From positions 1,178,001-1,242,000 of the forward strand of contig CM120640.1 of assembly GCA_051362555.1 (NCBI GenBank): a stretch of 64,000 nt of DNA. Reading direction: 5' to 3'. Below are positions 9,401-62,981 of this stretch, one piece after another (position 1 is the stretch's first letter; each line of letters starts with the position of its first letter). A program made the translations under genes and the position numbers. Source of the stretch: Lingula anatina (Eukaryota; Animalia; Brachiopoda). The notes beneath the pieces are model-generated. The model was not told where the DNA came from. It ran no database searches and was given only the letters and a program-made list of their open reading frames with translations.

Positions 9401-9803
9401 AATTTCAAGTATGCAATGTTCAAGAGGGAATTCCAAGTCAAAGTCAAAATGGCAAGGGCTACTGAGCCCCACCTTTGTGAATATTTTTCTTTTTGGTCAC
9501 GAAAAATCAAATATGAGAGAATGGATAAGAAAAATGCAATATGATGCCAGGTTGCCTACAGCATTCCGTGGAATCCATTTTGTAAGACCGTGATTGTGGG
9601 TAAAATATTGAGGAGGCAAAAGTTTCCTTCACGTTCCACTCTGGGTTACTCTTTTGACAAACGTGTATATATATGAAAATAAAAGAAGAAATGGCTAGTA
9701 TTTAGACTTAAACCCTGTGTCATCAACCCTAACAAAAAACATGTTTATTTTTACGCTAATTTTACACCATTCAATTTTTACAGCAGTTGATTGATCCACA
9801 TTA

Positions 9804-16837: not shown

Positions 16838-17001
16838 CAGGGGTGAATCCAGAGATATTTTCCGACAGTTTTCCAGTTATCTTTGTTGAACCATCCTCCA
16901 TTTTGGACTGTTTTCAGACAAACAATTAGATACCCATCAATGTAAATCCAAAAAATTCTAACCATCTTGTGAAAGACTCAGATGGCTTCTGTCTACCCCT
17001 G
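16838..17001. mobile_element. MITE with CAGGGG TIRs (hAT-like), copy 2, inverted and more diverged
   Basis: caggggtgaatccagagatattttccgacag...tctacccctg; reverse-complement homology to 6464-6631. Confidence 0.7.
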
Positions 17002-18798: not shown

Positions 18799-18910
18799 TC
18801 ATAGCAGCCCAAACATACAGGCTATCAGCAGAGCATGGAGCAGTATCACGTATAACAGGGCTATGTTCCTCATGCGAGGATACATCCTCAGTCTTCGGCT
18901 CAGGTAGACA
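18799..18910 (-). CDS. GOLGB1: Golgin terminal exon: C-terminal transmembrane anchor
   Basis: Acceptor gtttcag, phase 2; (S)VYLSRRLRMYPRMRNIALLYVILLHALLIACMFGLL-TGA. Not the frame shown in the ORF track. Confidence 0.88.
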
Positions 18911-20865
18911 CTGAAACGAGGAGGTAATGAGGATTGAGTAAAAGGAACAAAAGAATGCACTCACACTAGTGTGCAATAAGAAGAGACAAGTGAGGTCTCC
19001 TTTCACACATGCAAACATGCACACACATGCACACAATTTACAAGAAGAATTGTTACAGCTTATACTTAGAGCTAAAATTTTTCCATAAAGCCACAGAACT
19101 TTACCTTTGTCTATTAAACCAGCGCTGTAGTCTCTTACATGTCCCCAAAGCTCTTCTCGCTGGAAGTAAATCATTAATCAATGAAATAAACTTGTTAAAC
19201 CTGCATAGCAACAAATATAATATTTAAACAACACAAACTGTCATCAATAATCAAATATATCATTATTACTAAAATAACTTTATAAAGTATCAAGTGTTTA
19301 AAATGGTAAATTTATGCACATAATAATGTCTATTCCTTGTACTGCCATCACCTATCAATATGCATTTATTATATATAATTTATAATAATAAATATTACAA
19401 TGTATCAAAAATATCTAACTTACTTATATTTGGTGTCCTGGTGTCCAGAATTCTGCCATATTCATCCACCTCAGGTTCCATGTCTTGACTGAATGTGAAC
19501 TGAAAACATAATATACAACAGCTGTATTCAGTCTGCAGTGTAAAACACTCATAAGATATTGGTGGTATTGTCAGTCTCAAGGCCTGGACTTAGCTAAGAC
19601 TGCTATATTTGGAAAGTCAACTATGCTCAGCCCACTTCGTCATTAGTCGAAGTGAATTTTCATTTATCTTCTTTGTAAAATGAAACTTGGTTGACTAAAA
19701 AAATTAATTATTGGCAGACTTTCCGAGACTAATCATTTCATGAAATAGGACCCAGAACAGGGCCAAAGTACAACACTCTTTCTTGCCTTTTTCTTGGGCA
19801 CCCTGATTATAACCTACCTCTCTGGTGTACCCTAGCTGTTCCTGTTGGAGGTCCAGTTGTTGCTGAGCCTGGCTGAGCTGTTCCTCCAGTTCCATCCTCC
19901 TCTCCATCTCCTCCTGCAGGTGCTTGCTGAGAGCCTCTCTGGCCTGCTCCATGGACAGCTTCTCATGCTCTGCATCCTCAAGTCTGGAAGTTGATTACTT
20001 ATCATAATATGTTTTTCTTTGAGGATAAACTATGGTTTTGTCAAATCTATTCACATTAAAATTTGAATTCTGCAGCTATACTTACAATAATATTTTCAAT
20101 AAACAAATAAATAAAAGGGAAGAACATACCTCACTACTTTTACTGAAACACTGAAATTTTCTTTTTAAAGATATTATGGAGACCTGCCTGTGCTATCGAT
20201 TCCAGTTCATACCAACATAAAAAATATGTGCATCTTTCTTAAAAACATTAAAAACTTTAACTAATGACAACTCCACAGCCGAACCCTGATAAAAATAAGT
20301 GCAGTTTAATTTCCCATGCAGTTAGTGTGTTAGAAAAAACTCACGTCTCAGTCACAACTCTTGAACCGTCCACCACACTCTCTCTAAAAACCAGAAAAAT
20401 GACCCAGGTGACAATATACATGACCAAAACTTGACCACAAGGCAACATTTTTAAAAGTGAAGTGACTGAATGATAGATTGATTCCATATTTCCTCTCATT
20501 TCATAAATAAATAAATAAATACATAAATAAATAAATAATTTGGATTCAAATCAATTTTGAATTGTAATACATTCTACATCTAAATGCATTCTAAGATCAA
20601 AATTAATTTCAGTTGTCTTTCATTGGAGTTACCGGGCCATGTTTCTGTATACATCAAGAAACAAAATCATAACCAAATAATGATCTGCAACAGCAATGAA
20701 GCTTACACATCTTTTCCTATTCCTCTGAAGCGTATGTCCATTCAGGAGAGGAAAGAAGAAGTTTGTTACGACTTTTATTATAGTAATCACTGTCGCAAGG
20801 ATGTGTGAAACCACTTACTCAAACAATGGCACTGTCCAATCATTGCAAATTGCATGCACACCTAC

Positions 20866-20898
<33 letters not shown>

Positions 20899-23800
20899 AC
20901 ATTAAAAAAATTGAATTTTAGATTAATAGGGAAGAAATTAACATGTTCATTTGTCATTCATGTCAAAGATCGTAATTGTTAAATATCTTGTTCACATACG
21001 CATTCATCACGAAGTTCTACTACAAGTAGTCAGCTTAGTTCAACCTGTGGGGCAGTGTAATGTTGGTAATTTACAATGTTGCTGGGAACTAAGAGCTTTC
21101 CACTATGAATGATACATTTTAAACTACTAATATTAGCCAGGAGTAATTCTAAGATCATCAGTTCATTTGATAAGTTTGGTGATATGAAGCCAATTTGTTA
21201 ATAAATCAAACAATATAACAATGTTTTAAGAAAATTAGTGAACATCACAAAATTTTAATATCAAATATTTTTAGTCTACAAAACCTGCTAATCTTGTCTC
21301 CACTAACCTCTTAGCCATGGTGTGTATCTCAGCGTAGTCCACCTCCTCCATGAAGATAGACGTGGACATATTCTGTGGTGTGGATGAACCCTGGGGCTCA
21401 AGCTGGGACATACTCAGCAGTGTCTGGTCAGCAGGCGCCCTCTTGTGGCTGTCTACCTCCAGGGTCGGCTGCAGCACTGGCGCCTGGAGAGTAAAGGAAA
21501 TGTTACATGAAAAATTATCTTTTAAATATTTCTCCTATTGGGATTTTACTATTTAATTAAAATGCATTATAGTATGAATTTGATGAATTCCTTATTTAAA
21601 AAAATTATCTGAACTTTTAAAACTTTCTTGACATCAATGATTTTATACTGAAATGAAATAAAGTGATAAAAATAATGACAAATATACCATTTTATTATTT
21701 TTTTTTTTTATAATCAATTGGCAGTGAGTTACTCAGATATTTCATAATCTTTCAAAATGGCTTTAAATTTATTTAGCTCAGTTTAATTTTTTTATTTTGA
21801 AAAAAATCTCCACTGCTTAATAAATATACTAGCCTTCTCTTGCATTCTCTGTTGTTGTAATTTTTGGTGTTCTTGCTGCAGCTGTTGGTATTGTTGCTCT
21901 AATTGCTGACACTGTTCTTGCAACTGCTGGTTTTGCTGCTGTAACTGTTCCATCTGCTGATACTGCTGCTGTAACTGCTGATGCTGTGTATACAACTGTT
22001 GGTAATGTTGTTGTAATGTTACCATCTGTTGTTCTCTCTCCTGTAGTCCCTGGACAACACTGGACAGTTGTGAGTGCAGGTGTCCTCTCTCCTCTGACAG
22101 CTGAGTCACCTGACACAAGACAAGACAGCTTGTTAACACTGGATCAATAGGATGTTGGGCAAGCATTTTGAAAGTATGGTATTCAAGTGACTAAACTCCA
22201 AGAATAAGTCCATCAAAATACACCAATTATCTGTTTTAAATGACTGGAGAAAAATATGTTTCAAAAATGAAGCATGCTTATTTATAGGACTCGGAACCTA
22301 CACACCATAAAATTGCTCAAATTGCACTAAACACAACAATTAGCCCTGGGGAATTTGGACAATTTGATTTCTCCAATTTAAAGGAATTTGTCTTAATAAA
22401 ACCAATAAACCAGACTGCTGTACCTGCATAGCCAGCTGCTGTGCTTTGATAGCAGACTGGTTGAGGTCTTTCGCTTTCTTCTCTACCTCCTGGTGAAGCT
22501 GGTCCTTCTCTCCTCTCAGCCTGGTCAACTGCTCCTGTAGCTGGCTGTACTGGGCCTGATACGCTGACAGCTCCTCACTACCAGCCGCAGCTATCTCAAG
22601 CTGAAAATATTTAAAGAATAAAAAATCAATTAAACAAATTAAAGAAATTATTTTGTAAAAAATCAATAAATTGATAATGGCTGAATCTAACAATGCCTAA
22701 AATCTGAAGAATGATCTGAAGAATGATCAAAAACTTTTTACAGACTAGGTCAAAAATATTTTATGGAAATGTTAAGTTATATACATCAAGAAATTTCATG
22801 TTCTGTCAAAAAGTAAAAATAAATTATTAATATATCAAATTTAAAAAAATTATAAACGCAAATAAGTCATACATCAAAAATTAAGGATTCTCTCAAATAG
22901 ATAATGAGATTTATGAAAAGAGCCCAACCTGGGACTTGAGGTGCTCCATCTCAGACAGCAATCTGTTATTTTCTTCTTTGGCCTTTTTAGCTTCAGAAGC
23001 AGACGTGTCTCTCTCCTCCATCATCTGCTGCAGCTGCGCATTCTGCTGGTCCAACTGCGACTGGAGGGTTTCTTTTTCTGTCGCCAGGTGGCTCTGCTGT
23101 TGCTGCAGGGTTTCTCGCTCTAGTTTCATGTGTTTTTGCTCTTGCTGCAATGCCTAGAAAAAGTCATTTTGGTTTAAATTTAAGAATATAATGTGATATT
23201 TCTAATGTCTGTTGCAATTAAGTAACATCTCATGACACTGCTAGTGACAGTAATGTGTGTAAGTATGTGCAAGTAGCAAATTTGAAAAAAAGTTCTAGAA
23301 AAAATCTTAAATAGAAAAAACAAAATGCTTGAAAGGTTATTTTAAAGGTTTGGAAAAAATCCAAAATCAACTATGACTTATCCAAAAACTAAACTGTGAC
23401 ATGTCCAAGGTAATAATGATTTAATATAGCATCAATGTGTTACAATGTACCTGGAACTCCATCTGTGCCTGCTGCAAGTCATGTAACTTCTCCTGCAGCT
23501 CTCTGTTCTGTTTGACCAATGACGTGTTATCTTCCAGAACTTTATCATGTTGCTCTGTCAGAATGGTGTGTTCACTCTCAATGTTCCCAAAGTCCTGGAT
23601 TCTGTCATTCAGGGTGTTGATCTGTTTCTTCAGGGCACTGTTTTCAGACTGGAGTTTAAACAGCTGGTTTCTGGTCTCCTCTAGTTCCTCCTCAAGAGAG
23701 CTGAATTCTTCAATTTTCCATTTTAATCCTTCAAGTTCATCCTCTAGTTCAGTCCTTTCTTTTTCAACCACAGATAATCTCTCCTGTAAATTCTTTAAAT

Positions 23801-26800
23801 CTTCTGCCATTTCCTCACTGGACTCCCCTGAAGACTTCAGACTGTCCACCTCTTCCTGGAGAGCAGACACCTGTTTCTGGAAGGCACTGTTCTGCCTGGA
23901 CAGGGAGACATTTTCTGTCTGAAGATTTGTCACCTGTTCTTCCAGCTCCATCTGCCCCAAGGCTGCGTCTTTTAATTTCTTACATTCCTGTTGAAGCATG
24001 TTGACTTCCTGTTTGGAGTTTTCCAGTTCATTCTGCAAACTTGACTGATTAATTTCTCTTTCAGTCTCTTGCATGCTAAGGCTCTCATTTAAGGTCTTAT
24101 TTTCATCTTTAAGGTTCTCCAGCTCTGAGTGAAGAGATTCAGATTTTTCCTGCAATTTGGAATGTGATTCTCTCAGATCCTTCAATTCAGTTTTCATCTC
24201 AGTGTTCTCAGCCAGAACTCCAGCCAATTTGGCCTCCAGATTAACAACCTCTTGCTCAGATTCTTCAGCTTGTGTTTTATAATTTTGCAGGGTTTCCACA
24301 ATGGTCTCATACTCCTCATTTTTCTTTTGTAAATCAGCATTTGACTCTCGTAGAGACCCTATAACATCTGACAACTGCTCGTGATCAGTCACTAGCAAGC
24401 TGTACTGGGATTTCAACTCTGCATTTTGCTCCAACAGTTCTCCCTTTTCTATTGTGCCCCGTTCTTGAAGCTGCTTCAAATGTGACTCAAGATTCTCTTT
24501 TTCTTCGAGAAGAGTTTGTAATTGTGACCCAAGTTCAGATTTTTGTAACTGCATGGTTGACTGCAATTGGTCTATTGTTTGACTTAATTGTTCTCTTTCT
24601 GATTTAAAATGTTCTTGTAATTCTGACAGGTTTTCCCGTTCAGAAGACAGTTCCTCCATTAACCGATCACACTGTTCATGAAGACTGTGGACCAGTTCAG
24701 ACTTTTCTAACAGGCTTGATTCCAACTCAGTCTTCTTTGTTTTCTCGGACTCAAACTCATCCTTTAGAATCTTTCTCTCCTGATCAGCTTCCCCAAGCTT
24801 ATCTGATAGACTGCTGACCTCAGAAGTCAACCTGGCAACTTCAGCTTCCAGATCTCTATTAGGGTCTTCACCATGATCTCCCACGGATTCCAATTTTGAG
24901 GTCAGCTGGTCCACTTTGGCCTGTAACTGGTCATTTTTCCCTTTAAATGCCTTTAGCTTGACCAGCATCTTCTGTGCTTTAGCTTCTGTTGACTCCAACT
25001 TGCTCTTCACTTTCTGGTGTTCAGCTTCAAGTGTTGCGTATTTTTCCTCTGTGTCAGGTGATACAGCAGACTGCCTGGTGTGTTCTTGCTCTACCTGACC
25101 CTCCACTCTCTGAGCCCAGTCTTCTTGCTGTTTGGCCACACTGTCCACTCTAAGAGCTTCAACTTGCTCAGTCAAAGTCTGTTTTTCCTGAGACAACGTT
25201 TGCACTTGACTGGTCAAATCAGTTTTTTCACTACTTAGATCATGGATTTGACTAGATAGATTTGCCTTCTCTTCATTTAAGCTTCCAAGCTGTGTAAAAA
25301 GTTCCAGTTTTTCTGAACTTAGACTTTCATTCAAACCTGAGAGAGACAGCATGTCTTGATTTAACTTTTCAAGCTGTGCAGCATAGTCATTGCACTGAGT
25401 CAGCAAAGATGAAGATTTCTCAACTTCTTGTACAAGTTGTGAGTTCATGGATTTCAGATCTTCCAATAACTGATCTCTTGCTGCTGTTACAGTCTGTAGC
25501 TGCTGTTCAGCAGCTTCAAGTTCTTTCCTTGACTCTGAAAGTTTCTCCTGAAGTTTTTCTTTCTCAGAAATGGCACTGGCAATTTGCTCCTCTCTTCCCC
25601 TGGAAGTATCCATTAGTTCAGATTTATAAGTTTCTAACTGCTGTTCTAACTGAGAGGATCTTTCCTTCATTTCTTCTGCTTCAGCAAGCTGTGATTTCAA
25701 GTGGTTAATCTGTTCGTATGCACTTCCTAACTGCTCTTGTAGTTGTTGCATCTCTGCCACTACTTGCTTTTCTTCCATGCCAACTGCTTTTAATTTTGTT
25801 TCTAGTTCATCTAGCTGAGAATTCAGCTCCTGTTTCTCAAGGGCTACTCTTTCCATTTGTGAGATCAATTGATTGTTCTCTGAAAGTGCCCTCTGTAGCT
25901 GAGATTCCTTCTCTGCATCAGACAGTCCACTCTCTGAAATCTGCTGCTGAAGCTGTCGCTTCTCAGAGATGGCAGTCTCAAGGTTCTGCCTCATGGCTTC
26001 CAGTTCTGCTGCCAGCTGCTGCTTCTCAGCCTCAGCCGTTTCTTTTTCATGAAAACTGGAGTCCACTTCATCTTTGTATTTCTTAATGTTTGCAAGCTGG
26101 TCGTGTTTCTCAGTGGCCAAAAGTTCCGTCTGCTCCATAAGTTTTTCATTCTCGGCACCAAGCTGTTCCTTCTCCTCCTGCAGCTCTTTCACCTGACCTT
26201 CAAGGTCAGTCAACTGTGACAGAAGATCATGCTTCTCCATAGCGATTCTTTCAACCTGCTCCATCACTTTAGAATTCTCCGAAGACAACTGGTCTTTTTC
26301 TGTCTGCAGTGCTTCAAGCTGCAGTTTCATTGATTCGGCATCTGCCTGAGCAGTTTCAGAGCTAGAAGTCAATGACATATTTTGATTTTTCATTTCCTCC
26401 AACTGTTCTCTAAGAGATTGTAACTGCAGCTGAAGCTCATCTCCAACAGAAGCACTCTGTAACGTTCTTCCATGCTCCTCAACTAATGCTGCATGCTGAG
26501 AGCGTAGACTTTCCAATTCTGAGAGAGAATGCTGTTTTTCAGTCTCTGTGTCTCTCAGCATATCTTTCAGGCTATCCAACTGCCCCTGAAGTTCTTCACT
26601 CAGACTCTTGGTCTCCAACAACTTCCCATGTTCCTCTGCCAAAGCAGCATGCTGGTCCCTTAAACTAGCCAGTTCAGACTCCAGTTGAGCATTCTGAGAT
26701 TTGAATGCCTCTAACTCTACAGTGAGACTGGACCTCGTCCCAGTCAGTTCTAATTGGATCTTCTCCAGATCCGACATCAACTGAGAGTTCTCAGACCTCA

Positions 26801-29800
26801 GCCTCTCCAACTCTGGCACCAGCATGGTATTCACTGTATCCAGCTCTGACTGGAGGTGTTCACACGTCTGTGCCAGACTTTCCTTTTCTGCTATAGCTGC
26901 CTGTAACTCAGTTTGGAGTTTCTCAATCAAAGTGTCTTTTTCCTGCAACTTTATTTGCAGCTGTTCCACCTCTCCAACATGCCTGTTCACTTCTAACTCT
27001 TTTTCTGTGATGAACTCCTGAAGTCGCGCCACTTGCTGAGTGAGATGTTCTATGACCCCCTGTTTATCAGTGAGCTGAGCCTGTAGGGACTCCAATTCTG
27101 GGAGAGGGGCAGCAGAACCCTGGGACATTAACTGCTCCAGTTGCTGCTGCAGGGCATCTCTCTGTTGGCTTATCTTGGCAATGATGTTCTCCTTTTCTCG
27201 GAGGTTGGATTTGAGAAGCTCCAGTTCCTCATCGTGGACTGGGGTGCTTTCACGGCTTAATTCCTCAACCTTCTGGAGCAGGATTTCTCTTTCTTTTTGT
27301 AGTTCCTCTAGTTCACCAGCCTAGGGAGTAAAAAATAAGATATACAATCAATATCTAAAAAAGTCAAAGTTTTAAGTGCGACTAGTGGTTATCACACATG
27401 CAATGTGTTTAGTTATGTACAGTGGCTAGTAGACCTGATTAGACAGCTAAAACAGCCCATTTCAGTTCCCTATGGTTATAAAGTAAAATCATGTCAATGT
27501 ATTGTCAATCTTTTGCTCTGGTGGATTAGCAGGCTAGAACCTTAACCTGAAAGAACAGCAGAAAATTATCACATGCTAGAAAGCTAAAACTAAATATGAA
27601 GTTCCCCATTTTGGAGAAATTAAAAAAAAATTATACATATTAAGTCATTTTTGTATGTTCATTGACTGTATCAGGATCTGACATAATGGATTTTCTAAGT
27701 TTAACTTCTATTGCAGATAACATAGGAATATCAAACATGCTATCAAAGTGATTATTGAAAACCTTCAATCCCAGGAATTTTGTCAAGCAGAAAGAAACAC
27801 TTATGTAGTGAGGAAGGAAGAGGGAGGGAGAGAATTGGCTAATTTTAATCATCTTTATGAAACAGTGTCAATTCCACATCAGCCAGTGTATCAGTTTGAA
27901 CAATTACTACTACTTAAAATAACTTTAGGAAATTTGCTTAAAAAGAAATGAAAAGGAATAATCATTAATTTGCTGGAGTGATACATTCGTGTCTTAGTAA
28001 ATAGACTAGGGCAACTTAAATATTTTATAGGATGAACATTTACACCTTCCAAACAGTAACAAATAAAATGTCATATTGTCATCAGAGGCTGTCAAATAAA
28101 ATATAGGTGTTGAAATCAATTACAAATATTTTGTTAAAAGTGATAAGTCACACAAAGCTGGTTAAGAGCAATGTGATTTAAATGCTGAAATTAACACTAA
28201 AAATTAAACTTTGTGGTAATTACCAATTAAACATTAGTTAAAATTATAATACTCTAACAAAAAGCATTAATTTTTGTTAAATGGGTTAAAACTTAAGAAT
28301 ATCTGCCATTAGAATATAACTGCTGTTACAGTAACACATATTTACAATGACTGAGTATGGCAATGTGAATATGAGAGGTAACACAAAACACACATTGTAA
28401 TTTCAGAGTAATTTGATGACTTAGGCACTAAAGGAAGTGGTCCAAAACAAACTAAAATTAGGCTCCTTGAAAAATGATTCCAACAGTAACTGTAGTTTAT
28501 AGCCATAAAGAACCCTAAATCCAACATTTAACACTTAAAGAATTCTAATTCTGTCGAAGGAAATCCTTTCCTTCAGCCATAGTAACAAAACTTTAAGATT
28601 ATCCCCAGCAATAGGCCCATATTTATCAAAGACTAATGTATAGATCATATTTTACAGATGTAAGCTAAAGAAATTCCCCAAAAATAACATCAACCAAAAC
28701 CATATGTTTATTAAATATAACATTTTAACATAACTGTCCTCTTTTCCATACCATTATTTTACCCTCATATATCTCACCTTATTGATTATATTAGTCAGCT
28801 GAAATTAAACCAGTTTTGTATTGGATTATCAAGACAGTTCTAGGTAAAGCATGTGCTAAGATCAAAATAAAACAAAAATCTACAAATTCTGGCTGACAAA
28901 CAATAAAAAAAACAAGGCAAAAACATGCAAGAAACATCACAAAAGCAACTAGCAACAAATTTACTGACAACAATTTCTTCAAATTTAGGTCACGGGTAAA
29001 GACTCATTACAGTTCATAAACATGTGAACAAACAAACAAACAAACAAACAAACAAATATTCACCTGCTCTTCTGGCTGTGTTAACTGCTTCAGTTTCTGT
29101 TTCAGTTCATCTCTCTGCTTCTGGATTTGTTTACTCTTCAGGGACATCCCCTTCAGGACCTTCTCCTTGTCCTGGAGGGTCTTCTGCAGGATCTGGGTCT
29201 TCTCATTTGCTTGATGGACCTGGGGTTGTTTTAACAAGAATAGATTGGCTGTGATAAACAATGAACTTTTATTTGTAAAGAAATCTCAGGCACCAAAAGT
29301 CACTAAGTACTACAAATTATTTTAAAGCCTTTACAGGAAGCACTATGATTTCATAAAAATAATAAAATTTAAAAAAAATTTTGAAATTAAAAATATTTCC
29401 CTGGGTTCACTGATAATTATTGGTATTTAGTGATCATTGCTCTGTCAAGTTTCACAAATATCAGTTTTCCATATTGAAGTATGATATACCATTGATGGGC
29501 AATGTGGTTGATATTTTGTAACAAATCTCACACCTGTCTCAGCCAAAAAGCACATATTTCTAAATAAGCCACTAAGAGGAGAACAAAGTCAAAATATTTC
29601 AGAGCACCTGCATCTGCAGCTCCTGAATGTGTTCAGCAAAGTTCTGGAACTGCAGCCCCATCTGGTGGAGGTAGTACTCCCGCTGCTGTATCATCACCTC
29701 CAGCGCTATCACGCGGTCACGGTATACCTCGCTGTCTTCCGAGGGGGGTGGGGACTGGGCCAGGGGTGGGGTGCGGGGGCTGGGGGTTCTCCCTGGGGGT

Positions 29801-32800
29801 GGGGATCTGGCAGCAGCCTACGAAGCAGAACAGGGCAAGCTTTCATTTGTTTCAGTACAATTAGCATGAATTTTTACATTTTGTTTTTCCTGAACTTATA
29901 ACAATACTGAATAATATTACAAACAAGCTAAATTTCAGTTGTTCTAACACAAAATGTTTATGTTTGTTATTTACATGAATGCAAACTTGAAAAGTACCAA
30001 TCTTCACTTTGTTTTTTTAGAGCAAAGAATTGATGAATAGTCCTAGATTATTCACTGTACTTGAAAGAAAATTTTGACAATTCAAAATGAACAATAAGAA
30101 ACATTTATAAAAATTCATGAAGTCATTAAATATAACAGTTTTTAATTGCCCTTTCACAGACTTAATCCTCTATTTCTCACTTTAACCTGCTCTATCCAAT
30201 GATTACTAGCCATTTTCTAAAACTTACTGCTTGTGCATTCTGCAGCTCGGCCAGTTGTCTCTCATACTGTGCAGCAGTGTTCTGCAGGGTCTGGATCTGG
30301 CCAGCAGATGCCTGGAGCTGGTGCTCGTACTGAATCACTTTGCCTTGAAGGTTCTCTACTTGGCTGGCTGACTCCTGCAGCTGGTGCTCATACTGTGTTA
30401 GCTTTTCTTGGAGACCCTCTACCTGGCTGGCTGAATCCTGGAGCTGTTGGGTTAACTGTTCCACCTTTTCTTCATTCTGCTGTGATGTGGCCTGACTGGT
30501 ACCTTGAATACAAAATTCAGTGCTTATCATATGCATTCAAATGATTAAATAAACTGTAAACTTACATTTTTCAATTCTGAAATCTCAAGTTCACTTCTAA
30601 ATTCCATAAAAACTTCAAATCAAATAATAATATTATGAAGAAAAATAAAGGCTTTCAAACTACTATTTACAAGAAAAATGTGTAGTAGGATAATTAATTT
30701 AAAATTTGTCACAGAAGGTAATCAAGTTTAAAAATAAAATGACAGTAAATGCCTGTATCACATTAAAAATCAGCAAAACAAAACACTGGTACACAGTGTA
30801 ATCAGATGTATTGCTATGCAGTCGAGTATTTACTGCTTTAAGTACCTGGCACATCACATCAAGCACAGATGTTTACCTTGCAGTGCAGCATGTTGGGGCC
30901 GCACCATCTCCTCCACAACCTCCATGGAGTCTCCTCCTTGTGTCATCTGCTGCATCTCCTCTCCTTCATGGGACTGTCTTTCCTTTCCCTTCTCCTTCAA
31001 ATGCTTGTTTTCCAGTTTCAGTTTCTTTATCAGCATCAAATACTTTTTCATTTGAGTTTCTTTATCCTTAAGTGTTTTTCTCACTGTCTCCAAAGCTTCA
31101 TCTTTTTCATCCTTTTCTGCGAGTTGATCTTTCTCTACTGCCTGCTGGTCAATTAGATCTGCTTTCTCCTTATCTTGGTCTGTTCCAGGAAGAATAACCC
31201 GAGATTCCTTCTCAGAAAGCAGTGACTGAATCTTCTGTTCTTTCTCTGCAACTGTTTCATTGAGGTGCTGTATGACCTCTGCTGCCTCCTGGACTTGCAC
31301 TCTCAAGGTGTGCGTCTCCTCAGCATATTCTTCCACTTTTGAATTCATTTCCTGAATCTCTTCCATGAAAGAGGACATGCTTTTCTCCTTGTTTGAGAAA
31401 GCATTCTTGATTTTCTGTAAATGTTTATTGGAATGTTCCAGTCTAGTCTGAAGTACCTGTATTTCATTGATGTAACGTTCCAGTTCTCCTTCCAATTCCT
31501 GCTGCTCAGTTGTCATGGCAACTATTTGTCCATCTTTTTCCGTGATTGAGGCACTCAACTCTTCAGCGTGATCAGACGTGGTTGACAACTCGGCTGTTAA
31601 GTTATATATCTGCAGATCTTTTTCAGACACAATATCGTGCAGTTTCTTGGCATGATCAACAGCCATTTTTAGTTCCTCCTGAAGGTTTTCATCCTGGCTC
31701 GTGACTTTAGTCAACTGCTCCTGTAAAGAGGCAATTTCTGTGTCCTTCCCCTGAAGAGCTCCCTCAGTTGTTTCTAGACTTGTCTTGAGGTTGACTATCT
31801 GGGTAGCATACTCTTGTATCTGCTCATTAAGTTGTTGAATGGACTGAGACATGACAATCAGCTGCTGGTCCTTTTCTTCAGCAGACACCTGAGCCTGTTC
31901 ACTCTGTTGTGCTGTATGGTCCACCTGACATCTCAGCCTTTCCTTTTCAACATCCACAGTTTGAAGTTGTTCTGCAAGTTCTGACAAAGAGGAATTCAAT
32001 GTCATTATTCTCTCCTCTTTTTCAGCCAATGTTGTTTGAAGAGACTGCTTTTCTTCCGCAACAGTTTTCAGCTTGGCTTTAACAGCATCAAGTTCTTCCT
32101 CTTTTACAGATATTAATTCCTGTGATTCCTTTAACTGTCTTGTCTCCAATTCCAGCTGTTTAGTAATTTGCTCAATATCGCTGTCCTTTTTGTGTAAGAT
32201 GTCATCTTTTTCTCTAAGTCTCTCATCCAGGTCACCAGCCTGAGCCTCTTGTGATGCTCTCAAACTGTGAACCTCAGCAACACTCTCCTGTAACTTGGCA
32301 CTGATCTCTTGGAGGGTTTCATGTAATGTTGCTATCTCTTTGTTCTTATCCTCTTCAGAATATTTCAGAGTGTCACAGTCTGACAGCGCTTGTTTAAGCT
32401 GCTCTTTAACAGCTGCTATCTCGCTGGAAGCCTCTTCAAGTTGCATGTCTCTCTGTTCTACATCGGCTGCAGCATTCTTCCTAAGATCTTCCAACTTTTC
32501 TCTCAATGCTTTCACCTCATCATTTTTGGATTCTACACTTTCAATCAGAGAGGCCATGTGCCCTTCTTTTTCAGCTGCCATCTGCTGGATATCTTCAAGT
32601 TTAGATTTTGTTTTCTGAAGCTCTTCCTGCAACTTTTCATATTCATTTTGTTGCAAGGTTCCCTGGCCTTGGAGCTGTGAGACCTGCTCACTCAATTCTA
32701 AAATCATCTGGTCTTTGCCAGAAAGAGAATGCCGTACTTCTTCTGTTCCCTGAGAGAGGACTGCAACTTGAGTATTAAGTTTCTCCCTCTCTTGTTTGGA

Positions 32801-50800: not shown

Positions 50801-53800
50801 AATGACATAAATATTGAATAATTTTTTGCATAAAAGTTCCAATTACTTTCTCTCTGTTCTTCAAGTTCTGTCATCTTTAACTCAGAGGCAACTTTCTCAT
50901 CTTGCAGAGTTTTCTGGACCTGTTCAGCATCATGCAACCTTTGTGTCAAATCAGTCAGCTTTTCAGTCATGGCAAGCTAAAAAGGGGAAAATACCAGCAA
51001 ATTTACTCTCCTGTAGCAATATTCTACAAACTGTGATGTGATTGGAGTGCTTAAACCATCTAAATGTAAGAAATATTTAACATTTGCATATTCACAGCTG
51101 AGACACAATCTTTTTTTTTATATATATTTAATTCATTACATAATTTCTTATTAACTATTACTATTATGATATGAGATAAACAGTTTTAAGTAAAGGATCA
51201 CAAAAAACTGGTGGTCAAATGGTGTGTAATGTTCCTCTACCAAATCTGGACTCACCATATCAGCCTGTGTATGTTCCTTCAGGGCTTCAAACTCATCCAC
51301 CTTGGTCTCCAGACTGGATATCCTCTGTTTATCCTGCGCGCTCTCTTCCTCCATCAGCACCAGGGACGCCTTGGTCTCTGACAGTTCTGTCTGTAGCTTT
51401 TTCACTAGTTCTTCTCTAGCTTCATCAAAGGTCTTTTGATCCTGTAAAAATAAAATGTAAGTTATTTTGATTTTGTCCCCATCGGTAATTCAGTTCCATT
51501 TATCAGACTTTTTCTCCCTTGAAAAGAAACATAACTGAATATCTGTTCACATATCTTAAATTTTCTTAAAAATAAATGTGGGAAACTGAATCCTGATTAT
51601 TCACCAACAAGCTCCAAGCTCTGTCATACCTGCTGTAGTTTCTCTGTCAGATCAGCTACCGTCTGCTGCAGGCTTGCTCTCTCCTCATCCACCAAGATAA
51701 GCTGATTCTCCACTTCCTGCTTGCCAGCTGTGGCAGACAACAGCTCTTGCTCCAGCTCTGCAGTCTTCTTCTGAAGTACTTCTGCAATGGAAAATGGTTA
51801 TAAGAATACCAGCCAGCATTTTTATCCAAACTTTCAATAATAATTAAAAATCTGGTGTTATATAACAACAAGAATCTAGCACAAAACATAAAGACAGACT
51901 GACTTCAAAAATACAGTTTGGTGAAAATGGCATTATATATTCAAACAAAAAATCATTTTTCAAGGCAATATATGCATTATATGAATAATCAAAACTGCAT
52001 GCATTATTTGCTTCTATTGTAATTCAAGCTATGTACCTCCAGCAACTCACAAAATGAAATCCACCTCTAACTATACATATAAGTAACGTCCACACCTCTT
52101 AAATAAAATATAGCGTGTACAGGTTGTGCAGCCACTAATTACTGTCAGTTAATGGAATGTGAATGTAATGCTGGCAGGTGTTTTATAATTATTTCAAATA
52201 TATTAGAAATGAACACACTGTAATGACTCAATAAATATGAACATAATATTTTTTTCAAAAAAAAAGTTTTGTTTGCAATATTTGATAAATGTTCTTTAAA
52301 GGTTTTGACAAATTTGAGGGCTTCATTGTCTAAAGGAACATTTTCGAAAGTGTCTAAAATGACAATTCTTTAAAAGTAAAGGGTTAAAATAATTGAGGAG
52401 TTTGAAATTTTTCAATAACTACCGTACTAAATTACACGCTAGTAATTACACGCTAGTAAGAACCATACCAGCATCATGTTGAAAGTGCAACTTTTTCATT
52501 ATCCAATCTCAAAGCTTGGTGATACAATATATATTCTATCTATATCATATTATCTACATCACTTAATGATACGTAGGACAATGTCTTCAAATCAATAAAG
52601 CAGAAGCAATAAACACTTGTGATCTTTGGGGAATTCAGCACTAACAGAAATTACAGAGATGAGAACCAGTGAAAATTGTAAAACATCTAAAGTGAGGTGC
52701 CACACTGCATTGTACCATATGTTCCTGTAAATGGTCTGCTTCTAATACTGCTATTAGTTGTGTGAGTTTCAAGAAGAAAAATGAGGACAACTGTATCATA
52801 CAACTATTACAAAGAAAAGATTACATTAAATCTATTAACTCTTTGAGGGTAATAAAGACAGAAGAAAATACTCCCTGAGAGAAGATATGATGATTCTGAC
52901 AGAGAAGCAGGAAAGCTACAGAAGCAGATAACCCAAGCAAAATTGCCACCACTTCTAGTTCAAAAGCATACATTCAGCTGAAAAAAGCGTAAAAGCTAGC
53001 TGTAAGCTCTGCTTGCATTGGTGATGGTCATAGCATGAACCATTTGCCTGGGGTAATATTCCTTCGTAACACCTGAAAAGTGAGACATCTTAACCCTGAC
53101 ACCTTTGAAGAGAAAAGGAAGACCTGGTTATACCTTAACACTGAGAAATTTAACCCAAGATACCTAGAAATAGACCTTCATAAAAAATATGCTTAGGCTT
53201 GAAGGAAAAATAGAAAACTTAGTAATCATTACATTCAGTCCTTTTATCTTTTAAACCCTCGTATCCCTAAGCCAGAAATACATGCATGTTTTATTCAAGT
53301 TTTATTCAAGTTGGCAGTATAAACATTGTATCCATCACTGTTCTTCAACTCCTTTAAGTATCTTAGATGATTTTTTATATAAAACTTATTATATAGCAGT
53401 GAGAAAATTCTAGCTTGTGCTCAATAACCTTATTTTATATAAATTTGACATGTTTACACGATTCCCCAAATTTTACTCCTCAAAACAAACCTTTAATATC
53501 TTTATAAATTTCAACGGACAGCAAATTGTTATTGTGAACGTATGTGTGTGCGTATGTGCATTTGTGTGCATGTGTTTGTGAGCACGTATGCCTGTTAGAC
53601 ACACATTTACTACTAGGTCAGATTCTCCAATTAGAAGTCAAGAAATGAGTTACTGATCTCTAATGTATGCACGTCACTGAAAAAATAGGGAACTTACTGG
53701 ATCAGTCTACTTTGAGAGGCCTTAACATGCAATTCACTTGGCTTTTTACTCCACAACCTCACTTGCTGCTGTTTAGTTAGTTTAATTGCAGAACAAGGGG

Positions 53801-56800
53801 GCTTCATATAAGTGACTCTCTAAGGTAAAGTTCTCAATCTCAAAGTTTAGTTTAGTGTACTGGTCCATGTGGAAAAGACCAATGGGAAAATTCTAACAAC
53901 TAATAAAAACTAGGAAATGAGCATCATCATAGAAAAATCTCTAAAAAAAAAACAACATGGTTTACTCATAAGGTATTTTTTACAAAAATTAACTTCAAAG
54001 GAAAAGAACAACAGTCATTCATAACCCCCCTCCCTTAAAGGATCTATTCAACTTATATAATGTAGCATGATAAATGAAGCAGGTTTTCCCAGGCGTATGG
54101 AGCCATGCTTTGACCTTCACCTTGCCTAGCTTTGCTTTCTTCGTAGTCAACCAGCCGCAGCTGTAGGTTACCTTTCTCCTCTTCTACTTCAGCAATCTGC
54201 TGCTGGAGCCTCTCCAGGTCCTCCGCCAAGTCGTTACGCTGGATAACAAATAACAAATAGAAATAGACTGTGAAACACAAAACCTTTAAACAACAGGAAT
54301 CTGTCTTAGCAAAGACTGCTTAGAATTTTAGTAAAGTTTTACAAATTTTGACACTTCTTTTCAATTACAACTTAGCCGCAAAAGCAAACTGTGAACATCC
54401 TGACCATAATTTACACTCAGTGGTGACGAGAGCCCATGGCCAGTTAGACATGTCTACAACATTTGTTGTGGTCAACTGCTCCTAAGGAACTCTTTGACCA
54501 ACATCATAAAGTAGCTATTATATTAGAAATGTACGATAACACAGTTCATAACACAGGCTTGAAATTTCTATAGATGGATACCTTTATTTATTACTAGGTA
54601 TCTTGTTCTTCATAAATTCTCTTTTATTAAATAAATTTCAATATTTTACCATATTTCATGTCGCAAAAGAAAATGTTCAATGCTGTTTGGAAAACAAAAC
54701 ATTACCTGTTTCAGTTCTTCCACTTCTTCCTGAACCATTGCCAGTTGATTTCCCAGTTCTTGTAGCTCAGATTCCTTCTCTGCCAACTGACTTTTCAAAG
54801 TTTCCACCAGTTCCTCCTTCTCTGTCTGTCCTGAGCTGACGTCATTTTTAGTCCTTTCTAACTCACTCCGAAGCTTTTCTAACTGACTGTCTTTCTCAGC
54901 TAATTCTGTCTCGTGTTTCTCTTTAACTTCACTCAGATCTGCTTCCATGTTGGATTTTTCAGACTGCCACTTTGTTTCCATGGCAACAAAATTTTCCTGC
55001 ATCAGTCTCATCTGCTCCGTGGTCATGTCCAGCTTCTCCTGGAGGGCCTTTACTTTAGAGTTGTGAGCCTTCTCTTTTTTGTCAACTTCTGCCATTTCCA
55101 TCTGTGCAACTTCTAAGGCTTTAGACTTGGCTGTTAACATTTCATTAGTGTCATGCAGCTGCTGCTCCATCATTTTAAGGACCTGGTCCTGAACGTCCAC
55201 CTCTCCCTTGGTGGTCAGTTTTATAATTTCTTCCTCATGTCTAGAAATCAAGGCTCTGATGTCTTCGTCACGAGCAGAAACCTCTGTCTCTTTTTCATTA
55301 ACACTCTCTCGGAGCTGAGAAATTTCTTCCTCCCTCTCCTTCAAAGTGTCCTCGAAATGCTTCTGTGATTCTCGAAGTTGAAGTTCAAACTTTTCTTTTA
55401 AGGCAGCAATTTCCTTGTCTTTCTCCTCCAAGTGGTCCTCAAAATACTTCTGGGTTTCTCTGAGTTTGGCATCAAAACTTTCGACATCAGTTCCCTGGAC
55501 CTGTTCCTTGAGAAAGCCTACCTGCTCTTCATAGGTCTCCACTTTTCTGGTCAGCTTGGAAACCAAGTTGTTCAGTTCTTGAATGTCTTTGTCTTTTATG
55601 GCAACGTTTTCTTGGATAAGCTGAAATCAGGGGAATCGAAACATCAGACTCGCCCATACTATTTTTCTACAGAATAAGACATATTCTACTATAGACTGTA
55701 TTGCAAAGCAAACAAGGTCTTGTAACACTTCAATGTGTAGGCTAAATATGTCTGAATATAAACAATGGTTTTATGTGACATAAGAAAAAGAGCCAAAAAA
55801 TGCATCTACTTTCAATTGTTCTCTCAGATCTATGTCACCTTCTGAACTCCAGGTCAATACACTTAACTTTACCATCAGTGACTGCATTCCCATAAAATTG
55901 GATCAATCCATCTAGTTTGACCTAACTCCCTGGGGGTTCACGCTAAATTGCTGTCAGCCGAACGCACATGGTAGTTAATTACCCCCTTACAGCTTTTAGT
56001 AGGCGGGACAGACACTTAAGCCAGCTAAGCTGACAGTTATCTTGTAAGACTCCCACAGGGATAGATCGATCTAAAATCTGTGGGAATGGGGTTAATGATT
56101 CTTTACTGTATTATTAATAACTTCTTTAACTATTCACTACAATAACGGTATTTAGCCCAGACATCAGGTACCTGGATAGCCTTGTCCCGTCCCCGGATGA
56201 CCTCGTCTTTCTCTCGAACCGTCTCCTGGACGTCCATAACCATCTGATCCTGTTCCAACATCTTCTGGTTCAGTTCGAGGATCTTGCTGTCCTTGTACAC
56301 CATCTGGGCCACCATCTCTTCGCGCTCTCTCTGCGATACGGAAGAAGAAATAACAGTTGAACATTAGCAGGAAAAAAATCCCCTTCTGGCTTGAAATACA
56401 GCAGTAACAGATAAAGCCAGTTTAAAAATTATCCCCAACAGTCTATATTTGCTATCTTAGTTTTAAAAATATGTCATTGAAAAAATTTTTTTGAGATTTT
56501 TAGCAAACGTCTTAACAACAAGGCAGCAAAGCTGTCAAATGTACAGACAAAAAACAGAAAAAAAAAGATGCAAAATAGGTCATTATGTCAATTTTGATGC
56601 AATAATAAATGCTTATAATAGCACAGTCAGTCAACACGATTTTTAATCATGCACAACAGGTAACATGGTCAATAACAGGAGCAGATTCAGAGATATTTTC
56701 TGACAGTATTCCAAAGTATCTTTGTTGATCCATCCTCCATTTTGATAGTCTTCCAACAGAAACCCGTTAATATAAACTGTAAAATCTGACTGTCTTCCAG

Positions 56801-59494: not shown

Positions 59495-59525
<31 letters not shown>

Positions 59526-62076
59526 AGACGCAGATGATGGCTATATGTACAGACACATCTGTGTCTGTACATAAAAAGTGACTTGATTTATGGTGCAAAG
59601 GTTATATATTACAATTTATTACATCATAATAATCGCCAATGACTTTTGTACAAAACTATTCTGCTGAATATTATCCTCTTTTAAGTTAAACCCAGGCATC
59701 TGTGTGTGAACTTTAATTTAACTTCACTACCAACTGTGAATTCCTCACATACCAACAGTTCAACCTCTTATTTGAATAAATTAATAGAAAAAAGCAAGCA
59801 ATGAAGTTTATTTTGAATGATTTATAGCATTCCCCAAACTGAATACTATCTACATCATATAACATTATATACTGTTCAGAAAGGAGTTGATATTATTTTA
59901 CATAAAAATAATAAAACAATATGTATATTAAACATGAAAAGCAAAATAAAGAAAATATACAAAATAATCAGTGTAAGCTGACAACCTGCAACTCAGTACC
60001 TTTGCAATACTAAATAACACATTTCAGTCTCATATCTGTGAAAAAATCATGCAAAACAGACATAATACAAGCCTGAAATGCAGAAAATTACTTGAGAATC
60101 ACATAAAAAGGTAGAAATCTGATTGGGTTTATTTTCCACGTCATTCTAGCACTTCCCAGGAAACCAATCAGTTTGAAGGAATACAGAATGGCCCCTTTCC
60201 TCTTTTTTCCTTGTATGACTTTAGTTAATAAATTTAGAAAAAAGTTTTTAGAAAAACAAGAAAAAGATTTTTTTAAAATACTGGTTTTCAACCTTGCTTT
60301 TTTAACTTTAAATGATTCCAGTAACTCTGGGGATAATAAATTTATAATAATAATAATAACAAGGAGGAGGAAGGTTTTCTACCTTTTGCTGAAACAGGTT
60401 TGAAATACAAGCTAAAAATCAAAAACAGGACTTCAAAAAAAAATCAACCAAATCTTAATTTGCACAAGAACTACAATCCAAGCACAAAGGTAATTCTGTC
60501 ACATCTAAAGCAAAATGGCCAATAATTCATAGCATTAATAAGACATGTACACGGGTCCCTCTCCAGCCTTGGCGACAAGATGGTGACTAAAGATGACGGT
60601 GACTATACACAAAGACTAAGATCTGACATCACATACCATCATCAACCTACCTCAGAACACCCCGATGTCTGGATAAGATAAAAAGTCACATTTGGTTATA
60701 TAACATCTCAATGGAGCCAATTCTTGTGAATAAATGATCAATTAATGTCTGAGGTCAACTTCCTATTTTTCCCAAGAGTACAAAGTAAGAAAATTGTCTA
60801 CAACATTTACTTGGAGAAACAGTGGAGGACTGTTGGTGCAAAAGAACTTCAAGAACCAGATTCTGGTTGCAATTGTTGTTACTTTATGATCATGGTCCCA
60901 TGTTATAAATATATTCAATTTGTTTGAAATAAAATAAACCACCAAAAATAAAACTGGATTTTTCAAATAACCAGATTGGCCAGCCTTATGAAAATATCAC
61001 TTATTTGTTTTAGATCATTTTCCACAATTTACAGACTTCATTCAGAGACCATCAAATCTCTTAGTCCAACAAGTCCAAGTGGCCAGAGGTCTACAAAATG
61101 AAAGGGACAGACTCCTAAAAAGTCCCCTTTCCTCATCACCCACCTGTGTACTCTGCCCCCACCCCATCCCTCCCACCTGCACCCCCTGACCACCCACCTG
61201 TGCCCCCCCTCTCTCCCCCCCCCCCCCCCCCCCCCCCCCGGCCACCCACCTGAGCACTCTGGGCCGCCTCCTGGTCCTGTCTGGAACCCTCTCCTGATCC
61301 TGAGCCCAGCAGGGATGACATAATAATAGTCTTCAGCTGGAAAGATGGATAATAAAAAAATAATATATAAATATAATTACATGTATTTATATTATTACAG
61401 GTATCATACAGACTAAAATAATGTTTCAAGATGCATACAAAATATGTTTAACTTGTATGAGAAGTCAATGAGTCAAAGACTGAATGAAATATTAACAAGC
61501 ACAAAAAATTAATATATCTGCCTGAAGACTTATAAATTCTATTGGTGCATTATCAATTTGCTGCAACTTATCCATATATACATATTCATCAAGTTTCAAA
61601 AATTCTGGATGGCTTAAAATTAAGTTAAGCCTAATGATACAAATTTACAAATCTACTCTCAATCTACACAAGATGAAATTTCAATGAACTTTAAAATATT
61701 TCAAACACAGGCAAGCATATTGCTTACCAGCCACAAAACTTGCTTTATTCTGATGCAAAATTGCATCAATAAAGTGCCTTTAAAAACCTAAAGAAAGATG
61801 AAGAAAGTCTTCAAGAAAGAAAACAATCTTTACCTCACTGTCCTGTTCCTGCCCGTCTGCTCCGAGACCGTGAAGTCTCTCCAGTTGAGAGGACAGCGTC
61901 TGCACCACCTCATCTCTCTGAGCGATCATCTTCTCCATGTTGGCTACCTCACGTAACTTCTCCTCCAGCAGTGCCTCCTTTTCTGTGATAGTTTTGTCTT
62001 TAGCGTCAAGTTTTTTCTTCAGCACCAGAACCTTAGCTCTGGCAGCTTGATCTCCTCCGCTGCTTTCTTCATCTGC
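18799..62076 (-). CDS. GOLGB1: Giant giantin/GOLGB1-like tail-anchored coiled-coil golgin (at least 8,511 aa in window; 5' end outside window)
   Basis: Phase-consistent exons, 5' to 3': 61834-62076, 61250-61336, 56172-56330, 54706-55620, 54121-54238, 51630-51781, 51256-51441, 50847-50976, 50461-50579, 49925-50086, 30877-48367, 30228-30502, 29608-29817, 29064-29219, 23451-27320, 22929-23153, 22424-22600, 21834-22109, 21308-21483, 19818-19983, 19424-19499, 19105-19159, 18799-18910 (25,536 nt). Almost entirely E/Q/K/L heptad sequence. It ends ...RLQRWFNRQSVYLSRRLRMYPRMRNIALLYVILLHALLIACMFGLL*, a C-terminal TM helix with the Y-xxx-LH signature of giantin/golgin-84/CASP. The size points to giantin among these. 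Confidence 0.8.
20130..20150 (-). CDS. Candidate 21-nt golgin microexon (VSVKVV)
   Basis: aatttcag acceptor, GAG|gtatgt donor, phase 2-2 matching the host intron, open frame. Confidence 0.4.
20345..20383 (-). CDS. Candidate 39-nt golgin cassette exon (ESVVDGSRVVTET)
   Basis: tttttctggtttttag acceptor, AC|gtgagt donor, phase 2-2, open frame. Confidence 0.55.
20869..20897. repeat. (CA)n microsatellite
   Basis: Directly visible. Confidence 0.9.
23451..27320 (-). CDS. GOLGB1: Large 3,870-nt coiled-coil exon of the golgin (1,290 codons, phase 0-0)
   Basis: Contains most of ORF 23421..27128; acceptor ccctag at 27321, donor CAG|gtacat at 23450. Confidence 0.9.
29027..29056. repeat. (AAAC)n microsatellite
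   Basis: Directly visible just downstream of a golgin splice donor. Confidence 0.9.
30877..48367 (-). CDS. GOLGB1: Giant 17,491-nt coding exon of the golgin (5,830 codons, phase 0-1)
   Basis: Stop-free ORF 30854..48373; acceptor ttccttgcag at 48368, donor CAAG|gtaaac at 30876; both phases match the flanking exons. Confidence 0.9.
33610..37030 (-). repeat. Coding tandem repeat: about 20 x 171 bp (57 aa), with a 684-bp (228-aa) higher-order unit
   Basis: Motif K[YHN]KEEKxxLIxQLTELQQQ recurs every 57 aa; near-identical DNA blocks 684 bp apart (e.g. 34336, 35020, 35704). Confidence 0.92.
55880..56092. mobile_element. MITE, PIF/Harbinger-like, copy 2 (inverted relative to 4521-4717)
   Basis: Shares acagcttttagtaggcgggacag...ttaagccagcta.gctgacagt...gatagatcgatcta.aatctgtgg.aatgggg with the reverse complement of copy 1. 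Confidence 0.8.
56676..56831. mobile_element. MITE (hAT-like CAGG TIR family), copy 3, nested in HINE-like element
   Basis: Homologous to 6464-6631 and 16838-17001; flanked by direct repeat caataa. Confidence 0.7.
58880..59485. repeat. Tandem repeat of about 156-160-bp units (3 good copies plus 1 degenerate)
   Basis: gtgaaaaaacagcataaattccctaa...catgctgattttcgaacttgacctgc recurs with its cagca landmark at 59036, 59192 and 59352, and degenerate at 58893. Confidence 0.9.
61137..61249 (-). repeat. G-rich tract (about 25-nt poly-G on minus strand) with repeated CAGGTGGG donor-like motifs
   Basis: Poly-C 61215-61239 on the plus strand; four cccacctg motifs. Confidence 0.8.
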
Positions 62077-62795: not shown

Positions 62796-62837
<42 letters not shown>

Positions 62838-62850: not shown

Positions 62851-62981
62851 GTTCAAATAAAGATAAATTAAGAGCAAAAACAAGTCAAACAGTTGTCATC
62901 AAAAAACAGCATGATTCTTAGAGGAACTGGTCATCAAATTATGTAATTTTTCAAGAGTTTTGGTCTTGCTGTTTTTGGTTT

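What the first reader, a model, noticed from the sequence alone, without database searches (positions are those of the whole stretch)
18799..62076. A roughly 1-megadalton 'super-giantin': tail-anchored golgin of at least 8,500 aa
Seen: 23 phase-consistent exons total 25,536 coding nt with no internal stop, and the N-terminus is still outside the window. The product is near-continuous coiled coil ending in a giantin/golgin-84/CASP-type TM helix. Established: human giantin, the largest classical golgin, is about 3,260 aa, and coiled coils rise about 0.15 nm per residue. Inference: this protein is over 2.5 times longer and could extend about 1.2 micrometres if fully stretched. That is far beyond ordinary vesicle-tether range and suggests an organelle-scale spacer, ruler or scaffold. 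Automated annotation would probably split it or mislabel it myosin-like or centromere-protein-like.
Basis: partly seen in the sequence, partly recalled or inferred. Interest (0 to 1): 0.88.

Follow-up and report, generated by a model that had tools for sequence, protein, structure and literature searches.

The report
Length-switchable giant Golgi-tether gene
An animal gene, likely of an invertebrate, has a 17.5-kb stop-free exon that RNA reads show is spliced in at several lengths, so it likely makes a membrane-anchored helical rod, predicted to be a giantin-like Golgi tether, in sizes from about 2,700 to possibly 8,500 amino acids, the longer ones beyond human giantin.

Summary
The gene model is real: 23 exons, 25,536 nt, 8,511 codons without a stop, near-continuous heptads, one terminal membrane helix carrying the R-x5-Y-x4-H signature of golgin-84/CASP-type anchors. 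They also show what it missed: an internal acceptor (38125) and donor (37960) make the giant exon a nested cassette. Possible products are at least 2,736, 5,097, 6,150 and 8,511 aa. Read counts require the first two, plus at least one of the last two. The 5' 10 kb is in only about 12-13% of transcripts (two deeper runs), so the 1-MDa form is at best minor and is not shown end to end. Splicing from exon 13 to the membrane exon was not tested with RNA. Homologous exon fragments exist in other unnamed animals; orthology to giantin and Golgi location are inferred. The scan had not noted this on other DNA. Verdict: a new, splicing-tunable, very long variant of the tail-anchored golgins.

The parts
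61834..62076 (-). exon 1 of the model (coiled coil; not the first coding exon; 5' edge uncertain)
   Evidence: not tested with RNA
61250..61336 (-). exon 2, Gly/Ser-rich 29-aa linker
   Evidence: strong splice sites; not tested with RNA
50461..56330 (-). exons 3-9 (56330-56172, 55620-54706, 54238-54121, 51781-51630, 51441-51256, 50976-50847, 50579-50461), coiled coil
   Evidence: only the exon 9 to 10 junction seen in RNA (loose ends)
49925..50086 (-). exon 10, constitutive; its donor joins either 48367 or 38125
30877..48367 (-). giant exon 11, 17,491 nt, 5,830 codons, phase 0 in and phase 1 out
38126..48367 (-). optional 5' part of the giant exon (10,242 nt, 3,414 aa), in about 12-13% of transcripts in X1 and X7
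   Evidence: reads in 15 of 15 bins in X1 and X7, 5 of 15 in X4, 7 of 15 in X5
37960..38125 (-). 166-nt core: internal acceptor at 38125 (phase 0) and internal donor at 37960 (phase 1), the same phases as the outer sites
   Evidence: 49925>38125 X1 8, X7 3, X5 2, X4 0; 37960>30502 X1 8, other runs 0
30877..37959 (-). optional 3' part of the giant exon (7,083 nt, 2,361 aa), with a basic motif shared with relatives at aa 6526
33660..36740 (-). approximate span of a tandem array of 57-aa units grouped in 228-aa higher-order repeats
   Evidence: three units 87-94% identical as DNA, dN/dS 0.09-0.23; continuous helix in the model
30228..30502 (-). exon 12 with a 63-nt (21-aa) internal repeat; run X1 shows one more copy
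29608..29817 (-). exon 13, proline-rich break in the rod (aa 6685-6704), predicted hinge
   Evidence: junction from exon 12 seen in X1
29064..29219 (-). exon 14
   Evidence: not tested with RNA
23451..27320 (-). exon 15, 3,870 nt, with four short motifs conserved in relatives (aa 7585, 7774, 8000, 8062)
21308..23153 (-). exons 16-19 (23153-22929, 22600-22424, 22109-21834 with GC donor, 21483-21308); the exon 17/18 intron position recurs in two related loci
   Evidence: not tested with RNA
19105..19983 (-). exons 20-22 (19983-19818, 19499-19424, 19159-19105), membrane-proximal region
   Evidence: not tested with RNA
18799..18910 (-). last exon: basic stretch, single membrane helix with R8489, Y8495, H8500, then the stop; no lumenal tail
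   Evidence: compared by eye with the alignment; not tested with RNA

Best explanation
This is one transcribed gene whose 17.5-kb exon is spliced in at several lengths through an internal acceptor and an internal donor, and it likely encodes a giantin-type golgin, predicted to be anchored in the Golgi rim by its last helix and to project a coiled-coil rod whose reach is set by splicing. Shown: open frame, heptads, terminal helix with the class signature, four splice sites in use. Deduced from read counts: a short form (at least 2,736 aa) and a medium form (at least 5,097 aa) are the main transcripts, and a minor share carries the 5' part (6,150 or 8,511 aa). Inferred from the golgin family: post-translational tail insertion, retention at cisternal rims, homodimeric coiled coil, N-terminal capture of vesicles or neighbouring cisternae. 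Splicing would keep the N-terminal end and the anchor constant and change only the spacer (at most about 0.4, 0.8, 0.9 or 1.3 micrometres), probably by tissue or stage.
For: Junction reads for outer and inner sites, in matching phases. In stranded run X1 all but one bin has first mates on + only, as expected for minus-strand RNA; the neighbouring intron bin is empty in 4 of 4 runs. Depth 5' part / 3' part / exon 10: 2.3 / 7.3 / about 20 in X1, 1.7 / 4.7 / about 13 in X7. Coding constraint: 17 of 33 listed variants in the giant exon are synonymous against 19.5% expected (p 4e-5), none makes a stop; repeat units dN/dS 0.09-0.23. Models of two segments are long unfolded-back helices. The tail has R-x5-Y-x4-H: Y-x4-H stands in 28 of 28 and the Arg in 27 of 28 golgin-84 and CASP rows shown from PMC5840792 file 8; CASP_C is the top of two Pfam hits for the last exon, weakly (E 0.16). 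The short form is near giantin's 3,259 aa (PMC5082667).
Against: No sequence link to vertebrate giantin was obtained: three protein searches gave no hit and no Pfam golgin family passes its cut-off. Giantin is reported as chordate-specific (PMC5840792). No RNA test of exon 13 to the membrane exon. The outer acceptor was listed in 1 of 4 runs and the inner donor in 1 of 4. Depth is low (62-608 reads per run) and only 2 of the 33 listed variants lie in the 5' part. No localisation or protein data; giantin itself has not been shown to tether vesicles in cells (PMC6611411).
Confidence: 0.66

Rival explanations
1. Same gene and function, but the full 8,511-aa form is never made: the 5' part is always paired with the internal donor, so the largest product is about 6,150 aa (0.7 MDa).
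For: 151-nt reads cannot span the 166-nt core; in X1 the internal donor (8 reads against 8 plus 4 loose ends for the outer donor) is used often enough to absorb all transcripts with the 5' part.
Against: In X4 and X5 the internal donor was seen in 0 of 5 junction reads although the 5' part had reads (weak). Nothing in the sequence suggests coupling of the two choices.
Confidence: 0.25
2. It works like giantin but is not its orthologue: an independently elongated member of the golgin-84/CASP tail class.
For: Tail shares 7 of 16 positions in register with human golgin-84 (by eye); no hit to giantin; giantin reported in chordates only.
Against: It lacks the Trp two places after the His found in 13 of 13 golgin-84 rows shown and ends at the helix; size and near-complete coiled coil fit giantin; the survey's files name Helobdella but not Lottia, Capitella or Strongylocentrotus, so invertebrate sampling was thin.
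Confidence: 0.3
3. A non-Golgi, tail-anchored cytoplasmic scaffold like C. elegans ANC-1 or giant nesprins, holding ER, nuclei or mitochondria in place.
For: Same size class and topology: ANC-1 has up to 8,545 residues, tandem repeats and a C-terminal span that targets ER (PMC8139857).
Against: No lumenal KASH peptide (stop follows the helix), no KASH-domain Pfam hit on the last exon at E up to 1, repeats model as one straight helix, not three-helix bundles; golgin tail signature present. A calponin-homology head outside the window cannot be excluded.
Confidence: 0.12
4. The long forms use another 3' end and lack the membrane helix, acting as peripheral coiled-coil scaffolds (as recalled for Drosophila lava lamp).
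For: The chain from exon 13 to the last exon is untested with RNA.
Against: All downstream exons are phase-consistent to the membrane exon; the outer donor joins exon 12, which joins exon 13.
Confidence: 0.1
5. Assembly artefact or a separate gene inside an intron.
For: The exon holds a tandem array with units up to 94% identical.
Against: Longest identical run between units 100 nt, differences mostly synonymous; reads cover the array with no joint listed there, and junctions tie both ends to flanking exons.
Confidence: 0.02

Closest known systems
Giantin / GOLGB1 (tail-anchored rim golgin, 3,259 aa in human, 3,356 in zebrafish)
   Same: Almost wholly coiled coil, one C-terminal membrane helix, large internal exons; the short form here is of similar size.
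   Different: Forms of 5,097 to possibly 8,511 aa; length switched by nested splice sites, whereas giantin's length is described as conserved in vertebrates (PMC5082667); organism likely an invertebrate; orthology not shown.
Golgin-84 (GOLGA5) and CASP
   Same: Tail signature R-x5-Y-x4-H after a basic stretch.
   Different: Four to twelve times longer (their sizes of about 700 aa follow from the positions); lacks golgin-84's conserved Trp; no Pfam Golgin_A5 or CASP_C hit at cut-off.
Giant ankyrin-G (ANK3) exon
   Same: One giant exon used whole, in part through an internal in-frame site, or not at all, giving 480, 270 and 190 kDa forms (PMC5422562, passages).
   Different: Here both an internal acceptor and an internal donor, a 17.5-kb exon, and a coiled-coil rather than largely unstructured insert (ankyrin insert's nature recalled); unrelated protein.
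ANC-1 / nesprin-1 giant / MSP-300
   Same: About 1 MDa, tail-anchored, internal tandem repeats.
   Different: Spectrin-like bundles, CH head and lumenal KASH peptide there; straight heptad helix and no lumenal tail here.

Membership tests
Tail-anchored golgins (giantin, golgin-84, CASP class) | Long cytoplasmic coiled coil over most of the chain | tested here: met
   83 of 85 windows with period 3.4-3.7; helical models
Tail-anchored golgins (giantin, golgin-84, CASP class) | Single C-terminal membrane helix with little or no lumenal tail | tested here: met
   rests on the gene model, last junctions not seen in RNA
Tail-anchored golgins (giantin, golgin-84, CASP class) | Conserved Arg, Tyr and His in and before the helix | tested here: met
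   R8489, Y8495, H8500 in register with the rows of PMC5840792 file 8 (by eye); weak CASP_C hit E 0.16
Tail-anchored golgins (giantin, golgin-84, CASP class) | Golgi-rim localisation | not testable with these tools
   needs imaging
Tail-anchored golgins (giantin, golgin-84, CASP class) | Homodimeric coiled coil; Rab or p115 binding | not testable with these tools
   needs biochemistry; N-terminus outside the window
Giantin / GOLGB1 orthologues | Reciprocal sequence similarity to vertebrate GOLGB1 | tested here: inconclusive
   no hits; no giantin sequence was available as a query, and the searches had length limits
Golgin-84 (GOLGA5) | His-x-Trp-Val after the tail His; about 700 aa; Pfam Golgin_A5 | tested here: not met
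   no Trp there, present in 13 of 13 rows shown; no such Pfam hit listed
KASH proteins (nesprin, ANC-1, MSP-300) | Lumenal KASH peptide after the helix | tested here: not met
   stop codon follows the helix; no KASH hit on the last exon
KASH proteins (nesprin, ANC-1, MSP-300) | Spectrin-like three-helix repeats | tested here: not met
   228-aa repeat models as one helix, residues 2-227, pLDDT 89, pTM 0.32; 628 of 8,511 residues modelled in all
KASH proteins (nesprin, ANC-1, MSP-300) | N-terminal CH domains | not testable with these tools
   N-terminus lies outside the window and no genome is held

The most novel reading that the evidence does not exclude
A giantin-class golgin outside the vertebrates whose rod is dialled between about 0.4 and 1.3 micrometres by two nested splice choices in one 17.5-kb exon, with a real 8,500-residue form: the longest coiled coil known, 2.6 times giantin, used in particular cell types to space Golgi stacks or reach across a large Golgi zone.
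Probability: 0.35. Interest if true: 0.82.

Novelty: new variant of a known kind. Interest (0 to 1): 0.64.

Why it matters
A 2016 review calls giantin's 3,056-residue coil the longest identified and notes that its length is conserved (PMC5082667). Why golgins are so long is open, and giantin's own job is unsettled (PMC6611411). Here the transcripts imply a tail-anchored rod of at least 5,100 aa as a main form and 6,150 or 8,500 aa as a minor one, with the same ends and different spacers from one gene. Removing single splice sites would test directly whether golgin length sets Golgi spacing or cargo reach. If it is a giantin orthologue in a non-chordate, it would also move the origin of giantin back.

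Tried and rejected
No genome held, so the N-terminus and paralogues could not be sought. The run index listed no RNA holder; the 9 runs came by species label. Three word-based protein searches found nothing: exon 4 against 535-2,000 aa, the 3' part of the giant exon against 3,206-10,203 aa, exon 15 against 2,259-5,000 aa. Of 39 phmmer hits I kept 13 that carry shared motifs; the others looked like generic repeats or coiled coils where read and were dropped. Pfam hits on the rod are generic coiled-coil families; only ATG16 passed a cut-off, on a 3,000-aa piece, and is rejected as composition bias. PDB sequence search with the tail: 0 hits; Foldseek of the repeat model: 0 hits. Homodimer prediction of the 228-aa repeat: no verdict, score 0.02. 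The ESM Atlas gave no answer. Rfam: 0 hits. An alternative exon 18/19 junction (21830>21476) is in frame but scores far lower than the GC junction. The organism was not identified; 'invertebrate' is inferred from the divergence of the neighbouring acetyl-CoA carboxylase exon from the human one and is not a tested assignment. Ten literature searches (listings and abstract starts only) showed no paper on a golgin of this size or on nested splicing of a golgin exon; subscription papers and genome annotations were not searchable, and such models may exist there under names like 'golgin subfamily B member 1-like'. Gillingham 2002 and a second paper asked for by PMC id were not held.
Full report
Observation. 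Six-frame scanning shows a 5,841-codon open frame on the minus strand at 48379-30857, and others of 1,299 and 326 codons. The chain is 16.6% Glu, 12.9% Leu, 12.4% Gln and 0.3% Pro. 83 of 85 windows have a hydrophobic period of 3.4-3.7, and 5,616 residues run without proline. Breaks lie at a proline-rich exon 13 and in a linker near the membrane. The only hydrophobic segment is at the very end. The start codon is not in the model and no genome is held.

RNA evidence. Nine RNA runs with the same species label were listed; four, from three studies, were laid on 30150-50140 (608, 72, 364 and 62 reads). Loose ends match exon 9 and exon 13. The intron bin next to the exon is empty in all four runs, so reads on the exon are not pre-mRNA background. 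The separate-gene and artefact readings fail.

Two further joints lie inside the giant exon: 49925>38125 (X1 8 plus 5 loose ends, X7 3, X5 2) and 37960>30502 (X1 8). Their phases equal those of the outer sites, so all four combinations are in frame: 2,736, 5,097, 6,150 and 8,511 aa, or 315, 589, 704 and 978 kDa, before adding the N-terminus. Mean depth on the 5' part is 0.12-0.13 of exon 10 in X1 and X7, and on the 3' part 0.35-0.37; the 5'/3' ratio is 0.24-0.37 in all four runs. In X1 the inner donor takes 40-50% of junction reads, more than the 5' part can supply, so the short form must exist; the 3' part exceeds the 5' part, so the 5,097-aa form must exist; the remainder is the 6,150 form, the 8,511 form or both. 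The shared core is 166 nt and reads are 151 nt, so this cannot be settled here. These shares ignore 3' bias and loss of divergent reads (X7 is mostly 90-99% alike and lays poorly on exon 12). Joints under 3 reads are not listed, so more minor sites may exist. The inner acceptor ranks 8 of 2,080 AG sites in the exon, the inner donor only 75 of 623 GT sites. The junctions from exon 13 onward were not tested with RNA.

Constraint and repeats. Of 40 variant rows shown (370 more not shown), 33 fall in the giant exon: 17 synonymous, 16 not, none a stop, against 19.5% synonymous expected; only 2 lie in the 5' part. The one listed indel is 3 nt. The 3' part holds about twenty 57-aa units grouped in 228-aa repeats; three repeats compared are 87-94% identical with dN/dS 0.09-0.23, so they are real, selected duplications. 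AlphaFold2 models this repeat as a single helix and a 400-aa piece of the 5' part as two long helices with a 7-residue break; low pTM fits an extended rod.

The tail. The last exon encodes a basic stretch and a helix with Arg8489, Tyr8495 and His8500, then the stop. In the golgin-84 and CASP alignment of PMC5840792 (supplement file 8, 28 rows seen) Tyr-x4-His stands in 28 and the Arg six before the Tyr in 27. The text says these anchors share similarity with giantin's and that the Tyr is needed for ER exit of CASP (passages). The Trp of golgin-84 (13 of 13 rows) is absent. Pfam's top hit for the exon is CASP_C, weakly (E 0.16, profile positions 224-246 of 252). There is no KASH peptide. No giantin tail was available from a call, so likeness to giantin in particular rests on size, architecture and recall.

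Relatives. phmmer with 1,200 aa of exon 15 gave 39 hits. Thirteen chosen proteins and two of three related loci carry one to five short motifs in the same order as the model (patterns written after seeing the sequences; 0 to 0.045 matches per shuffled model). L002 and L003 share the intron position after exon 17, and L003 has the next exon at 46% identity. The distance between the first and fourth motif is 1,474 aa here and 721-1,200 in four relatives, so rod length is elastic in this family. The first motif lies in the optional 3' part, so that part is old. All relatives are unnamed fragments of up to 2,223 aa; whether they are giant is unknown.

Mechanism. Shown: transcription, four splice sites in use, open frames, heptads, tail signature. 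Inferred from the golgin family (PMC5267433, PMC6611411, PMC11974933, PMC5576078; passages): tail insertion at Golgi rims, dimeric rod, capture through the N-terminal end. Splicing changes only the spacer, at most 0.41, 0.76, 0.91 or 1.26 micrometres at 0.1485 nm per residue (rise recalled); real reach may be much shorter (GCC185). I put 0.66 on this reading and about 0.6 on the 8,511-aa form existing at all.

Comparison and novelty. Giantin is called the longest known coiled coil (PMC5082667, passages and Table 1) and chordate-specific (PMC5840792; giantin rows seen in one part of its Table S3 include amphioxus and an ascidian; invertebrate sampling looks thin; its alignment file 9 was not seen). 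Nested use of a giant exon is known from ankyrin-G (PMC5422562) and 1-MDa tail-anchored scaffolds from ANC-1 (PMC8139857). Two more papers read as passages added nothing. The combination in a golgin was not found in ten searches. It is a new variant of a known kind.

Noticed in passing
window 311-430 (-), gene runs off the left end: Exon of an acetyl-CoA carboxylase gene (phmmer to human ACC1, E 7e-7); upstream exon candidates near 6770-7080.
   Followed up: partly
window about 9800-15400 (+): Multi-exon gene like CARF / ALS2CR8 (Pfam PF15299 above cut-off on 11293-11478), convergent with the golgin gene and divergent from the ACC gene.
   Followed up: partly
window 62947-64000 (+): 351-codon open frame of a non-LTR reverse transcriptase (RVT_1 E 7.5e-21, plus ALKBH8_N), next to a 41-nt T run at 62797-62837; likely in an intron of the golgin gene.
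   Followed up: partly
   Followed up: partly
window 30311-30472: 63-nt repeat in exon 12; run X1 shows an extra copy (goes back 52 plus 11 letters, 9 reads), so rod length also varies between individuals.
   Followed up: partly
window 13098-13466 and 58993-59482: Intronic minisatellites of 72 nt (5.1 copies) and 160 nt (3.1 copies).
   Followed up: no
window about 4530-4710 and 55900-56090; about 6460-6640, 16840-16990 and 56680-56830: Two short dispersed repeat families seen by eye, probably non-autonomous mobile elements.
   Followed up: no
whole window: CpG observed/expected 0.24, suggesting heavy gene-body methylation.
   Followed up: no
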